Shown here: positions 21,743 to 25,131 of the stretch, piece after piece
Position numbering within the stretch: the first letter of the stretch is position 1
How the letters are laid out: every line of letters begins with the position of its first letter
The notes under the pieces: model-generated
Seen by the model: the letters and a program-made list of their open reading frames with translations, nothing else
The model's database searches: none
What the model was told of the DNA's origin: nothing
Program-made: the position numbers and the translations under genes
Assembly (NCBI GenBank): GCA_002723415.1
Contig: PBOA01000009.1
Coordinates: 23,258 to 87,257, forward strand
Direction of reading: 5' to 3'
DNA: 64,000 nt
Source of the DNA: Chloroflexota bacterium
GTDB lineage: Bacteria > Chloroflexota > Dehalococcoidia > Lucifugimonadales > GCA-002723415

Positions 21743-22318
21743 TTAATATTTATACAATTTGTTCTTTCTTATATAATCTTCTACTTTTTCTGGAACAAGC
21801 AAGTCTAAATTTGAACCTTGTTTTATTTTTTCTCTTATTTCACTTGCACTAACTTCAATAAATTTACCATCAATAATATTAAATTTAATATTTTTCATAT
21901 ATGACTTAGCGCTATTAAATCCAGGCCTATTAATAACAAAAAATTCTGAAGATTGTATCAAATCTTTATACCTGTGCCATTTTTTAATATCACTTAAAAC
22001 ATCTGAGCCTAAAAGAATACAAGGCTTATCTTCAGAATTTTTTTTATTAAGATCGGACAATGTATCGACCATATAAGTGGGGCCTTTTCTTTGAATATCT
22101 ACATCTGAGACAAAAAATGCTGGATTTGAATCTATAGCAATCTTTATCATATTTAACCTGTGAAATGCGCTTACTGTATTAGAGCTTTTCATCCAGGGAT
22201 TTCCCGCAGGCACAAATATAACTTTATTAAAGTTATATGAATTTAATGCCAGTTCGGCTGCCAATAAATGCCCCTTATGTATTGGGTCAAATGTTCCTCC
22301 AAATATAATTTCTCTCAC
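21743..22318 (-). CDS. nadD: Nicotinate-nucleotide adenylyltransferase
   Basis: FGGTFDPIHKGH, GPTYMVDT, LLGSD, VSASEIR; GTG start. Confidence 0.95.
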   Translation of the reverse strand: MREIIFGGTFDPIHKGHLLAAELALNSYNFNKVIFVPAGNPWMKSSNTVSAFHRLNMIKIAIDSNPAFFVSDVDIQRKGPTYMVDTLSDLNKKNSEDKPCILLGSDVLSDIKKWHRYKDLIQSSEFFVINRPGFNSAKSYMKNIKFNIIDGKFIEVSASEIREKIKQGSNLDLLVPEKVEDYIRKNKLYKY

Positions 22319-23565
22319 ATATTACCCCATTTCCACTCAGCTTCACCAATTCTCACCAAGCTACCTTCTTCAATTCCATAATCAATCAGTTTTTTAAAAA
22401 CTCCAGCCTTTTCTAAGAAAGCGTTCCATTGGGCTTTAGCATTCCAGTCTCTAAAGTCCACCATCCCTGAAACCCTCTCTCCTTTTCGGTACTCTACTAT
22501 AAATACACCATCTTTCTTAAGTATATTGATCTCATCTTGTATTTTTACAGGGACATCGTTTCTAATATATGAAGTAACCCTATCACAAGGAATATTCTTT
22601 AAAAGAGTTTCAATAGATTCTAGCAATGAACTGAGTCCTTCCCCTGTTAAAGCTGATATAAACACAGGGGACAGGGGATAAACCATTTCTTTTATTGAGC
22701 TTTTTTCTATGTTCATTTGGTCAACTTTATTAATAACAAGTAATTTCGGCTTGTTATTTAAACCTGATTGACTCATTTTTAATTCTGCATCAATCAAGCC
22801 AATATCATTTTTTATGTCAGAGGATGTCCCGTCAACTAAGTGGATTAGAGCTTGGGTTTTTTTAGCATGTTTTAAAAACTCAATTCCTAGTCCTGCGCCC
22901 TTATGTGCTCCTTCTATAAGTCCTGGAACTTCAATTACTTTTATAGTTTTTTCATCATTATAAATATTTACCATTCCAATTACTGGCTCGAGGGTTGTAA
23001 AAGGATATCCTGCTATTTTAGGCTTGGCCTTACTAATTCGTGATAAAGTCGTTGATTTACCAGCATTAGGAAGACCCACTATACCCACCTCTGCAAGTAT
23101 CCTCATTTCAAGTTTTAGTTGTTTTGAAGTAGTTTGTACTCCTTTTTCTGCCAATAATGGAAATCTATTGACTGGCGATACAAACCACTTATTTCCTTTT
23201 CCTCCACTTCCTCCATGTTGTAAAACAACTTCATCTTTGTTTTTTAATAATTCTGCGTAAGGATCACTCTCTTCGTCTTTATATATATATGTTCCAACAG
23301 GAACTTCTATAATCAAATTATTAGAATCCGAACCATGTTTTAGCCTTGGCTTTCCAGAATGCCCATCTGTCGCAAAAAACTTTTCGCCATTTCTAATATG
23401 ATTTAAAGTGTTTAAATTGTGGCTGGCTTTTACTATTATATCTCCTCCTTTTCCTCCATCACCCCCGTCAGGTCCACCAGCAGATACAAACTTTTCTTTC
23501 CTCCCACTAATACAACCATCTCCACCATTACCCGCCTTTATTGTAATTAATACTTCATCAATCAT
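22315..23565 (-). CDS. obgE: Obg/CgtA GTPase
   Basis: Gly-rich Obg fold (GGPDGGDGGKGG), G1 GLPNAGKS, G2 YPFTT, G4 NKVD, C-terminal OCT-like domain. Confidence 0.96.
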   Translation of the reverse strand: MIDEVLITIKAGNGGDGCISGRKEKFVSAGGPDGGDGGKGGDIIVKASHNLNTLNHIRNGEKFFATDGHSGKPRLKHGSDSNNLIIEVPVGTYIYKDEESDPYAELLKNKDEVVLQHGGSGGKGNKWFVSPVNRFPLLAEKGVQTTSKQLKLEMRILAEVGIVGLPNAGKSTTLSRISKAKPKIAGYPFTTLEPVIGMVNIYNDEKTIKVIEVPGLIEGAHKGAGLGIEFLKHAKKTQALIHLVDGTSSDIKNDIGLIDAELKMSQSGLNNKPKLLVINKVDQMNIEKSSIKEMVYPLSPVFISALTGEGLSSLLESIETLLKNIPCDRVTSYIRNDVPVKIQDEINILKKDGVFIVEYRKGERVSGMVDFRDWNAKAQWNAFLEKAGVFKKLIDYGIEEGSLVRIGEAEWKWGNM

Positions 23566-23580
23566 TTAATTTAATCCAAT

Positions 23581-23823
23581 ATATATAATAATAATAATAA
23601 TAATGTTTATTTGTATACTAATATAAAGATTTTAGTGGTTTTAGGAATAATTTTAACACAAAGTATTGGTTGATATGAGTTTATATTTGTTACTTCTATG
23701 TTCTTTGTTGAGTTTCCTTTTTGTTGACAAGAAGGGGAGCTTTTTATAGGAGAACACAAGTCAACGGTTTATAAACGCATAGGAAACCCTTCCGTTGATT
23801 TAGGCAGATAAGAGGGTTGATAT
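23581..23823. other. Predicted chromosomal replication origin (oriC)
   Basis: Intergenic region just downstream of dnaA; + strand changes from C-rich to G/T-rich here (by eye); AT-rich tract with (TAA)6; six GTTGA/TCAAC cores; TTTAACACA (23652-23660) is one mismatch from TTWTNCACA. Confidence 0.7.
23586..23603 (+). repeat. (TAA)6 trinucleotide array, candidate DnaA-trios
   Basis: Six perfect TAA units (3'-AAT-5') immediately followed by box-like TGTTTATTT (23604-23612). Confidence 0.6.
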
Positions 23824-25131
23824 TGTTTTGTTGTAATTAATATCTTCCTGCATTTTTTTAATAGAGTTGTTTAGTATTTTGATCACGGTGGAGTGTGATC
23901 GTCCACCAAGTTTTCTTCCGATGTCAGTTGGCCCCAGGTTGGTTTTTTCACTAAGAAGGTGTATCGTTATCATTCTTCCTAAAGCTATTGACTTAGCCCT
24001 GTTTGTGCTTTCAATTTCACTTTCGTCTATTTTTAAATGTTTTGCTACAAGCGATAAGATATCCTCCGCAGAAAATATTTTTTTTGTTTGTGAAGTAAAT
24101 TCAGAGGAGAGGTCTCTAGCTTTATCAAGAGTAAGCTCTTTTTTAGATATTTTTGCATATGCGGTGAGCCTCGTTAGGGCTCCCTCAATATCCCTTATGC
24201 TCTTAAACTTTTGTTCTGCTAGAAAAGATATGATTGATGGGTTTATATAAAACCCTGTTGCTTCTAATTTTGATGATAATATAGCAGCCTTTGTTTCTAA
24301 TTCAGGCTTTTTGATGTCTACTATAAGCCCACTTTTTAATCGTGACTGAATTCTTTTTTCAAGCTGGTGCAGTTCGGAAACAGGTCTGTCACTAGCAATG
24401 ACAATTTGTTTGTTTAAGAGATGCAAATAATTAAACATATGAAAAAAGGCTTCTTGTGTTTGTTCTTTTCCAATTAAAAACTGTATATCATCAATAAGTA
24501 TAACGTCAGATTTTCGCAAATTATCTCGAAATTCACTAGTTTTCCCATTTTTAATCGAAGATATAAATTGATTTGTGTATTCTTCAGAAGTTAAATATAA
24601 AGAAGAGGCTTTTTTGATATTGGAAGCGGTGCCAATGGAATGAAGTAAGTGGGTTTTGCCCAGCCCGACTTCAGAATAAATAAATAAAGGGTTATATAAA
24701 ACCCCAGGATTTTCAGATACTGCCAGGGCTGCATGATAAGCAAGTTCATTTGATTCTCCAACAACAAATGAACTAAAAGTGTAGCGATCGTTTAAAGGTA
24801 GTAATGGAGTAAAAACATTTTCTTTATTTTCTTTTTTGATATTTTTTGCTTGGCGTGATGGCTTTGTAGTAGAATTTTTTCCAACAACAACAAATTTCAA
24901 ATCAATATTAGTTGATGCAATCCTCTGTGTGGTTTCAGAAATAAGCGGATACATCCTATTCTGTAGCATTTCAGCAACAAAAATATTTGGAGTGCCAACA
25001 GTAAGGGTATTGTCTTTAGATTCTAGCCCAATGGTATCTTTTAGCCAAGTTTCATATGTTGGTCTTGTGATTTGTATTTGGAGATCTCCAAGGACTGTTT
25101 GCCAAATATTTTTTGCAGTTAAATCAGTCAT
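23800..25131 (-). CDS. dnaA: Chromosomal replication initiator DnaA
   Basis: Domain I (W...TYETW), YTFSSFVVGESN, YNPLFIY, GLGKTHLL, LIDDIQF, domain IV GGRSHSTV. Confidence 0.97.
   Translation of the reverse strand: MTDLTAKNIWQTVLGDLQIQITRPTYETWLKDTIGLESKDNTLTVGTPNIFVAEMLQNRMYPLISETTQRIASTNIDLKFVVVGKNSTTKPSRQAKNIKKENKENVFTPLLPLNDRYTFSSFVVGESNELAYHAALAVSENPGVLYNPLFIYSEVGLGKTHLLHSIGTASNIKKASSLYLTSEEYTNQFISSIKNGKTSEFRDNLRKSDVILIDDIQFLIGKEQTQEAFFHMFNYLHLLNKQIVIASDRPVSELHQLEKRIQSRLKSGLIVDIKKPELETKAAILSSKLEATGFYINPSIISFLAEQKFKSIRDIEGALTRLTAYAKISKKELTLDKARDLSSEFTSQTKKIFSAEDILSLVAKHLKIDESEIESTNRAKSIALGRMITIHLLSEKTNLGPTDIGRKLGGRSHSTVIKILNNSIKKMQEDINYNKTISTLLSA

What the first reader, a model, noticed from the sequence alone, without database searches (positions are those of the whole stretch)
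23860..24010. DnaA recognition helix is substituted at box-contacting residues
Seen: NLGPTDIG...GGRSHSTVIKI versus E. coli NHSLPEIG...[11 protein letters not shown], i.e. P423T, D433S, T435S, H439K, A440I (my manual alignment), with R399 and H434 kept. Known (from memory of the DnaA IV-DNA structure): P423, D433, H434, T435 and H439 read the box in the major groove. Inference: protein and origin co-evolved, explaining the TCAAC cores next door; a natural test of the DnaA recognition code.
Basis: partly seen in the sequence, partly recalled or inferred. Interest (0 to 1): 0.7.

Follow-up and report, generated by a model that had tools for sequence, protein, structure and literature searches.

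The report
DnaA Asp433Ser variant with matching origin boxes
The only replication-initiator gene (dnaA) of this marine Chloroflexota genome has serine where nearly all studied DnaA proteins have a DNA-reading aspartate, and its origin next door is built from TCAAC sites instead of the textbook TCCAC; related genomes show the same pairing, but no binding assay has tested it.

Summary
DnaA (window 23800-25131, minus strand) reads GGRSHSTVIKI where E. coli reads [11 protein letters not shown]. That gives P423T, D433S, T435S, H439K and A440I, with R399 and H434 kept.

Four of the five changes (T423, S435, K439, I440-type) are ordinary for this order. Relatives that carry them have normal TTATCCACA/TTGTCCACG origins. 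Only D433S is specific to the window's family, and it is invariant across 8 proteins of 74-100% identity.

The dnaA-obg spacer is the origin:
- it holds the only intergenic TCAAC cluster in the genome;
- it has an AT-rich (TTA)n stretch;
- the GC-skew minimum lies beside it;
- the layout is syntenic across the order.

In the order, D433 origins have C at box position 6 in 54 of 81 boxes. Origins with other residues at 433 have it in 1 of 34 (P=5e-11). All five Ser/Thr/Ala433 lineages use A, G or T there.

Ser/Thr433 DnaAs occur in at least 120 species across several phyla. Canonical boxes are almost absent beside these genes.

There are exceptions: one D433 relative with TCAAC boxes, Thermotoga, and one Thr433 genome with C6 boxes. 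Binding has not been tested. I read this as a new variant of a known system, of moderate to high interest.

The parts
23800..25131 (-). dnaA, 443 aa, the only DnaA gene of the genome
   Evidence: ORF. Pfam DnaA_N, Bac_DnaA and Bac_DnaA_C. E=2e-98 to B. subtilis DnaA 8BTG. Single PF08299 match in the genome.
23803..24066 (-). DnaA domain IV (residues 356-443), the DNA-binding helix-turn-helix domain
   Evidence: Bac_DnaA_C covers residues 356-419. Ungapped alignment to E. coli domain IV 1J1V.
23875..23901 (-). Recognition helix R411-S412-H413-S414-T415-V416-I417-K418-I419 (E. coli 432-440). S412 (23896-23898) replaces D433.
   Evidence: Invariant in 8 family proteins.
23926..23928 (-). T402, equivalent to E. 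coli P423. Thr is the norm in this order.
   Evidence: order consensus LxxTxIG.
23998..24000 (-). R378, equivalent to the minor-groove Arg399, retained
   Evidence: Invariant in the family.
23815..23823 (-). Box-like 9-mer ATATCAACC inside the last codons of dnaA. It may owe its conservation to coding.
   Evidence: it encodes ..ISTLLSA.
23793..23801 (-). Variant DnaA box AAATCAACG, overlapping the dnaA stop codon. Conserved in 3 of 4 family members.
23766..23777 (.). Palindromic pair TTATAAACC / TTATAAACG (A at position 6)
23758..23766 (+). Variant DnaA box AAGTCAACG
23722..23730 (-). Variant DnaA box TTGTCAACA, one base (C6->A) from the actinobacterial/Chloroflexota type TTGTCCACA
23706..23714 (-). 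Variant DnaA box AACTCAACA
23668..23676 (-). Variant DnaA box ATATCAACC
23604..23612 (-). Element AAATAAACA next to the repeats. It reads AAATGAACA in relative L032. The element ..(T/C)NAACA.. also occurs in D433 relatives, so it was not used as covariation evidence.
23566..23660 (.). AT-rich probable unwinding region, including the (TTA)n / (TAA)n DnaA-trio-like run 23586-23604. The most conserved part of the spacer in the family.
   Evidence: alignment A4, and order-wide alignment A2.
22315..23565 (-). obg, the downstream neighbour that bounds the origin. The order dnaA - origin - obg is conserved across the order.

Best explanation
This is the chromosomal initiator DnaA and its origin in an uncultured marine low-GC Chloroflexota lineage. 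The Asp that begins the DNA-reading helix (E. coli D433) has become Ser. The DnaA boxes of the adjacent origin, in the dnaA-obg spacer, have changed at one position, from TTATC-C-ACA to wwnTC-A-ACn.

Shown here: the substitution is real and fixed in the family; the spacer is the origin by every sequence criterion; and across the order the residue at 433 and the base at box position 6 change together. Asp goes with C, as does Asn in the one genus where boxes could be called. Ser, Thr and Ala go with A, G or T.

Inferred: residue 433 helps to read position 6. My chemical guess is that the Asp or Asn side chain accepts a hydrogen bond from the cytosine amino group, and that a short hydroxyl or methyl side chain cannot do so and instead suits a purine N7 or a thymine. 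If so, the initiator's specificity and its sites were retuned together.
For: Gene and residue:
- Identity and substitutions are shown.
- S412 is invariant in 8 family proteins of 74-100% identity.

Origin:
- There are six TCAAC/GTTGA cores in about 160 bp, against 0.33 expected (Poisson P=1.5e-6; 0.017 such windows expected genome-wide).
- This is the top genome-wide cluster of WWNTCAACN. No canonical-box cluster exists anywhere in the genome.
- The other TCAAC clusters and the best TTATCCACA groups all lie inside genes.
- The cumulative GC-skew minimum of the contig falls at window ~23.2 kb.
- An AT-rich (TTA)n run lies beside the boxes.
- The layout dnaA - three boxes ~21 bp apart - AT-rich stretch - obg recurs across about 30 families of the order.
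- In an unbiased 5-mer count over four family spacers, TCAAC ranks first: 12 observed against 1.18 expected (P=5e-9), with TCCAC at 0.

Covariation in the order:
- D433 loci have 54 C6 boxes out of 81. Non-D433 loci have 1 of 34 (P=4.9e-11).
- By lineage, C6 is the plurality in 15 of 17 D433 loci and in 0 of 5 Ser/Thr/Ala433 lineages (P=8e-4).
- The non-Asp lineages are: own family S433, TCAAC; G294 S433, TTATCGAC; G022 S433 and G075 A433, TTATCGAC; G342 T433, TTATCTAC/TTATAGAC; genus g12 T433, three TTATCAAC. The sister g12 N433 has TTATGCAC/TTATCCAC.
- These lineages are scattered among D433 relatives on the DnaA tree.
- Near-isogenic helices: L003 RDHSTVIKN has TTATCCAC boxes, and the window's RSHSTVIKI has TCAAC.

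Other phyla:
- At least 120 species have Ser or Thr at 433.
- Canonical boxes are almost absent within 700 bp of these dnaA genes.
- Clostridia, Actinomarinales and Muribaculaceae examples carry dense TTATGAACA/TTATAAACA arrays beside dnaA.
Against: - No binding data exist for this protein or for any S433 DnaA.
- S433 goes with A here but with G in G294 and G022, so Ser does not specify one base.
- L031 keeps D433 yet has four TCAAC boxes and no TCCAC. L015 has two TTATCAAC among its three array boxes.
- T. maritima DnaA reads NRSHPVV and its published box keeps CCAC (PMC4285127).
- L126 (RTHTTVMSA) has 8-9 TTATGCACA boxes.
- One family member (L032) has only one TCAAC in its spacer.
- The family sits on a very long DnaA branch of 2.4 changes per site, so other substitutions could be responsible.
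- The readable literature places the D433 contact at box position 7 (PMC8235120). I could not read the primary structure paper.
- The statistics are not corrected for phylogeny beyond the lineage count.
Confidence: 0.68

Rival explanations
1. Loss of a contact, not retuning. Ser433 simply no longer reads position 6, and the boxes then drift with the genome's mutation pressure: towards A in this 30% GC genome, towards G in GC-rich relatives. DnaA would then depend on the remaining contacts and on cooperative binding.
For: S433 pairs with A in low-GC genomes and with G in GC-rich ones. Box number and position are poorly conserved within the family, and L032 has one TCAAC. TATAC and TAAAC variants also occur in the window's spacer.
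Against: If position 6 were unread, the ancestral C should persist, especially in GC-rich genomes. It is nearly absent: 1 of 34 boxes. Each lineage has one dominant base rather than a mixture.
Confidence: 0.17
2. D433S is a passenger. The change in box preference is caused by other residues of domain IV, or of the fast-evolving protein as a whole (for example positions 438/439, or backbone contacts), and Ser433 is a tolerated by-product.
For: L031 has TCAAC boxes with D433 but S438/L439. The family's DnaA lies on a branch of 2.4 changes per site. Earlier scan notes on other genomes link A6 boxes to changes at 435 and 439 (unchecked AI notes).
Against: Five separate lineages of the order with different helix contexts (IK, IS, KH, MH, LH at 438/439) all lose C6 when 433 is Ser, Thr or Ala. 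K439 and I/V438 occur with D433 and normal boxes in L003, L005 and L006.
Confidence: 0.1
3. The TCAAC words are not DnaA sites. They would belong to another DNA-binding protein, or be chance, and DnaA would bind elsewhere.
For: There is no direct binding evidence. TCAAC is a common word in the genome (3885 copies).
Against: The words occupy exactly the place that canonical DnaA-box arrays occupy in about 30 related families. They differ from the canonical box at one position only. This is the only intergenic cluster in the genome, and it sits at the GC-skew minimum.
Confidence: 0.05

Closest known systems
E. coli / B. subtilis DnaA domain IV with the R-type box TTWTNCACA (structures 1J1V and 8BTG)
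   Same: Same four-domain protein, the same helix-turn-helix domain with ungapped alignment, and R399 and H434 kept. The box matches at T4, A7 and C8. The origin lies next to dnaA with an AT-rich unwinding region and trio-like repeats.
   Different: Ser replaces the Asp of the 'DH dyad', which reviews call highly or near-universally conserved (PMC5043019; PMC8235120). Box position 6 is A, whereas every experimentally defined high-affinity box listed in the 2015 review keeps C there (PMC4285127).
Borrelia burgdorferi DnaA (T451/S453, equivalent to D433T/T435S)
   Same: The base-contacting Asp is replaced by a small hydroxyl residue, and T435 by Ser. The authors suggest that the protein may recognise unique sequences (PMC9879097). 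Borrelia loci turned up in my scan as KTHSTVLYS.
   Different: Thr rather than Ser, and a different phylum. According to that paper, the borrelial box had not yet been defined.
Epsilonproteobacterial DnaA with the TCATTCACA box
   Same: A documented case where recognition-helix differences (S435, K439) go with an altered box and an altered footprint (PMC5043019).
   Different: There the change is at box position 5 and the DH dyad is kept. Here S435 and K439 are clade background with normal boxes, and the change is at D433 and position 6.
Thermotoga maritima DnaA with the 12-mer AAACCTACCACC
   Same: It also has Ser at the D433 position (NRSHPVV; alignment to 2Z4R).
   Different: Its box keeps the CCAC core (PMC4285127), and its helix also differs at 435 and 436. 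It argues against a simple rule that Ser433 means 'not C'.
Mollicutes DnaA-box consensus TT(A/T)TC(C/A)ACA
   Same: If recalled correctly, this is a described consensus that allows A at position 6.
   Different: The source papers were not held, so this is a lead and not a tested comparison.

Membership tests
Bacterial replication initiator DnaA | Domain architecture DnaA_N + AAA+ Bac_DnaA + Bac_DnaA_C | tested here: met
   Pfam hits at 35, 205 and 58 bits, all above their cut-offs. E=2e-98 to B. subtilis DnaA.
Bacterial replication initiator DnaA | Walker A motif GxxGxGKTHL | tested here: met
   The translation reads VGLGKTHLLHSIG.
Bacterial replication initiator DnaA | It is the genome's initiator copy, not a paralogue such as Hda | tested here: met
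   Single PF08299 match in a genome estimated 97.6% complete. Full length, and syntenic with the dnaA of about 30 related families.
Bacterial replication initiator DnaA | Domain IV base-contact set R399, P423, D433, H434, T435, H439 (as listed in PMC2533591) | tested here: not met
   Only R399 and H434 are kept. T402, S412, S414 and K418 replace P423, D433, T435 and H439.
Chromosomal origin oriC (DnaA-box cluster plus unwinding element) | Cluster of DnaA-box-like 9-mers beyond chance | tested here: met
   Six TCAAC cores in 160 bp (P=1.5e-6). Top genome-wide cluster. Enriched across the family (P=5e-9). The boxes are of the variant type.
Chromosomal origin oriC (DnaA-box cluster plus unwinding element) | Adjacent AT-rich unwinding region with trio-like repeats | tested here: met
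   The region 23566-23660 includes the (TTA)n run and is conserved in the family. Whether it unwinds cannot be tested here.
Chromosomal origin oriC (DnaA-box cluster plus unwinding element) | GC-skew switch at the site | tested here: met
   The cumulative skew minimum of contig C9 falls at window ~23.2 kb.
Chromosomal origin oriC (DnaA-box cluster plus unwinding element) | Supports initiation or autonomous replication | not testable with these tools
   This needs replication profiling or an origin-plasmid assay.
Users of the canonical R-type box TTWTNCACA | C at box position 6 in the origin's boxes | tested here: not met
   There is no TCCAC in the box part of any of the four family spacers. 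The window's boxes have 5 A, 1 T, 1 G and 0 C at position 6.

The most novel reading that the evidence does not exclude
Residue 433 of DnaA would be a general, predictable specificity switch for box position 6 (and, in some clades, position 7). Asp or Asn would read C. Ser, Thr or Ala would read a non-C base. On this reading the 'universal' DnaA box is one of several codes, used by whole phyla: Planctomycetota, many Anaerolineae, Borrelia, and several Clostridia and Actinomarinales. Origins in those groups would be missed or mis-scored by finders that search for TTATCCACA. This order would offer the full mutational path, with Asp, Asn, Thr, Ala and Ser forms each carrying their own origins.
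Probability: 0.4. Interest if true: 0.72.

Novelty: new variant of a known kind. Interest (0 to 1): 0.57.

Why it matters
DnaA-box recognition is usually treated as almost invariant, and origin-prediction tools and textbook models rest on TTATCCACA. This site gives a compact natural experiment within one bacterial order that shares a single origin layout. The reading helices differ only at position 433 (RDHSTVIKN against RSHSTVIKI), and the origins differ at one box position. Independent Ser, Thr, Ala and Asn variants exist for comparison.

That makes the question 'which residue reads which base of the DnaA box' testable with a handful of domain IV proteins and oligonucleotides. If the pairing holds, origins could be predicted in the many uncultured lineages, and in Borrelia, where canonical boxes are missing.

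Tried and rejected
- **De novo 8-mer seeds.** A search per locus in the flanks of 120 S/T433 dnaA genes was mostly noise from low-complexity and coding sequence. Only the Anaerolineae TATCCCAA and Clostridia TTATGAAC/TTATAAAC seeds were clear.
- **Pooled enrichment.** Comparing flanks with the rest of each locus using a loose box definition gave only modest ratios (A6 1.3-2.1 fold, C6 about 1). These are confounded by AT-rich intergenic composition, so I rely on the per-locus arrays instead.
- **Repeat-proximal element.** I first took AAATAAACA (23604-23612) as an orthologous C6->A replacement. I dropped it because D433 relatives also read ..(T/C)NAACA.. at that spot.
- **Alternative origin.** The best groups of TTATCCACA-like words elsewhere in the genome (C4:12468, C3:26412) are three widely spaced words inside genes. 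The other TCAAC clusters are coding, and one is a tandem coding repeat.
- **Literature.** The primary structure paper (Fujikawa 2003) and the Mollicutes origin papers are not held. Searching for the box strings themselves, and one badly framed taxon query, returned nothing useful.
- **Structure model.** I did not model domain IV. The alignment to 1J1V is ungapped through the helix, and no DNA docking is available, so a model would not have tested the contact.

Full report
**What is there**

The stretch 23860-24010 lies in the 3' part of an ORF at 23800-25131 on the minus strand (443 aa). The ORF has the three Pfam domains of DnaA. It matches B. subtilis DnaA at E=2e-98. It is the only Bac_DnaA_C match in the 1.86-Mb, 37-contig genome. 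Near-identical and related proteins are labelled Chloroflexi/Chloroflexota bacterium and come from marine surveys such as Tara.

HMMER aligns domain IV without gaps to the E. coli domain solved on DNA (1J1V)...TNLGPTDIGRKLGGRSHSTVIK... against ...[23 protein letters not shown].... L438I is an additional change. The codons can be read directly.

**Which of the five changes is unusual**

I compared 29 genomes of the same order. Each belongs to a different family, and their DnaA proteins are at most 50% identical to the window's. In the domain IV alignment:
- Thr at 423 is the order's consensus.
- Ser at 435 is the majority state.
- The nearest relatives read RDHSTVIKN (L003), KDHSTVVKN (L005) and KDHSTVIKN (L006), so they share K439.

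The literature also reports S435 and K439 as common in epsilon and delta proteobacteria, and calls the Asp-His pair highly conserved (PMC5043019). PMC8235120 says the D433 residue is conserved among all classes.

So only D433S sets this family apart. It is fixed there: eight proteins from metagenomes, 74-100% identical overall, all read GGRSHST[VI]IKI. A pattern scan of 400 genomes of the order found Ser or Thr at 433 in only eight.

**The origin next door**

The spacer between the dnaA stop and obg (23566-23799) holds six TCAAC/GTTGA cores in about 160 bp. One of them lies inside the last dnaA codons.
- From the genome's own word frequency, 0.33 are expected (P=1.5e-6; 0.017 such windows expected in the whole genome).
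- It is the top genome-wide cluster of wwnTCAACn. No cluster of canonical boxes exists anywhere.
- The other TCAAC clusters and the best TTATCCACA groups lie inside genes.
- The cumulative GC skew of the contig reaches its minimum at window ~23.2 kb.
- Beside the boxes lies an AT-rich stretch with a (TTA)n run. This is the best conserved part of the spacer in three syntenic family contigs.
- An unbiased count of all 5-mers over the box part of the four family spacers puts TCAAC first (12 observed, 1.18 expected, P=5e-9). TCCAC does not occur at all.

Written in the usual orientation, the sites are ATATCAACC, AACTCAACA, TTGTCAACA, AAGTCAACG and AAATCAACG. This is the canonical TTATCCACA with C6 replaced by A.

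**The same place in relatives**

The alignment of the dnaA 3' end plus downstream DNA from 30 loci shows a shared layout: dnaA stop, then typically three direct GTGGATAAC boxes about 21 bp apart, further TCCACA boxes, a TGnTAnAAT-like word, an AT-rich ATTATTA-type run, and then obg.

D433 relatives fill this layout with TTATCCAC/TTGTCCAC. The lineages without Asp do not:

| Lineage | Helix (433 residue) | Boxes |
|---|---|---|
| G294 | RSHSTVISA (Ser) | TTATCGAC x2 plus further TCGAC |
| G022 | KSHN (Ser) | TTATCGACA x2 and CCATCGACA |
| G075, same genus as G022 | KAHN (Ala) | eight T(T/G)ATCGAC-type boxes |
| G342 | KTHT (Thr) | TTATCTACG, TTATAGACA, TTGTCTACA |
| genus g12, Thr form | KTHATVLHG | three TTATCAAC at 21-bp spacing |
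| genus g12, Asn form | KNHATVLRG | TTATGCAC x2 and TTATCCAC |

Counting boxes with one fixed definition, D433 loci have C at position 6 in 54 of 81 boxes. Non-Asp loci have it in 1 of 34 (Fisher P=4.9e-11). By lineage, the split is 15 of 17 against 0 of 5 (P=8e-4). On a DnaA tree the non-Asp lineages are scattered among Asp relatives, so these are repeated events.

All three Ser433 lineages of the order use TCN codons. These are one step from Ala or Thr codons, and Thr is one step from Asn, which is one step from Asp. All of these intermediates occur in the order. That gives a plausible stepwise path, which is inference only.

**Beyond the order**

About 110 of them are clear DnaA genes: 78 with Ser and 37 with Thr at 433 by the tally. 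They come from Planctomycetota, Anaerolineae/Aggregatilineales, Borrelia, Actinomarinales, Thermoleophilia, several Clostridia and others.
- Canonical boxes (at most one mismatch) are almost absent within 700 bp of these genes.
- The Clostridia, Actinomarinales and Muribaculaceae loci carry dense arrays of TTATGAACA, TTATAAACA or TTTTGAACA right beside dnaA. This is again TTWTN-A-ACA.
- Anaerolineae with Ser or Thr at 433 repeat TTATCCCAA instead, a change at positions 7-8.

So Ser433 is not unique to this genome. The window is a clean example of a wider and, as far as I could find, undescribed pattern. For Borrelia, the authors of PMC9879097 noted the equivalent T451/S453 and suggested a distinct, still undefined box.

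**How it most likely works**

Shown: the substitution, the origin assignment by sequence criteria, and the covariation.

Inferred: residue 433 takes part in reading position 6. An Asp or Asn side chain can accept a hydrogen bond from the amino group of cytosine. It tolerates adenine, which also has an amino group, and this would explain the occasional TCAAC boxes in D433 origins such as L015, L029 and L031. A Ser or Thr hydroxyl can instead donate to N7 of a purine. This chemistry is my reasoning, not a result.

The one readable summary of the crystal structure places the D433 contact at position 7 together with L438 (PMC8235120). I could not read the primary paper. A carboxylate bridging the amino groups of C6 and A7 would reconcile the two accounts, but that is untested.

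**What argues against a simple code**

- Ser goes with A here and with G in G294 and G022. GC content may decide between the two purines.
- L031 keeps Asp and has four TCAAC boxes.
- T. maritima has Ser at this position, and its published box retains CCAC (PMC4285127).
- L126 (RTHTTVMSA) has eight or nine TTATGCACA boxes.
- One family member has a single TCAAC in its spacer.
- The family's DnaA sits on a long branch.
- The repeat-proximal element AAATAAACA cannot be counted as evidence, because D433 relatives have a similar word there.

**Earlier notes of this scan**

The neighbouring note on the origin (e1-5260853) agrees with my reading of the spacer. Several notes on other genomes describe A6-type boxes with altered helices, and some report exceptions. 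I used them as leads only. They lower the claim to uniqueness but fit the general pattern.

**Verdict**

This is a new variant of a known system, DnaA with its oriC. Its main value is as a well-controlled natural series for working out how DnaA reads its box.

Noticed in passing
L059, L064, L072, L083, L102, L103, L124, L144 (upstream flanks of dnaA): Anaerolineae/Aggregatilineales DnaAs with R[S/T]HSTVLHS or RSHTTVLHG repeat TTATCCCAA upstream of dnaA. At least 2 copies occur in 15 of 21 and in 6 of 7 loci. This box variant differs at positions 7-8 rather than 6.
   Followed up: partly
L042-L150 (Planctomycetota loci): Planctomycetota DnaAs almost uniformly read RSHSTV[IV][AS]A. The palindromic word TGCTAGC(A) recurs at least twice in the dnaA flanks of 19 of 38 loci, and TCGAC/TCGAT-type seeds are common. 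No canonical boxes lie near dnaA.
   Followed up: partly
L126, about 160-330 bp downstream of dnaA: A Thr433 DnaA (RTHTTVMSA) with eight or nine perfect TTATGCACA boxes. This is a clear exception to the rule that a non-Asp residue at 433 means no C at position 6.
   Followed up: partly
L031 (G004), spacer after dnaA: A D433 DnaA with S438/L439 whose origin has four TCAAC boxes and no TCCAC. This suggests a second route to the same box variant.
   Followed up: partly
L021, L023, L027, L030 (order relatives): Some DnaAs of the order lack even His434 (helices RHRT, RDPS, WTKK, RDRS) and show no recognisable box array downstream. Their origins and specificity are unknown.
   Followed up: no
window 23640-23660, and the same column block in alignment A2: A TGnTAnAAT word (TGTTAAAAT here), which looks like an extended -10 promoter element, is conserved between the boxes and the AT-rich run in many families of the order. 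It may be the obg promoter or part of the unwinding module.
   Followed up: no
G000:C9:17140-17290 (about 6 kb before the window start): A tandem coding repeat (..ETVEN.. units, with several N bases in the assembly) at the end of an ORF, just upstream of a gene whose first residues looked to me like a single-strand-binding protein (not checked). It produced the genome's largest GTTGA count by chance.
   Followed up: partly
DnaA tree: The window's family sits on a stem branch of about 2.4 changes per site, and its amino-acid make-up differs from the rest of the order. This points to fast, composition-driven evolution of DnaA in this low-GC lineage.
   Followed up: no
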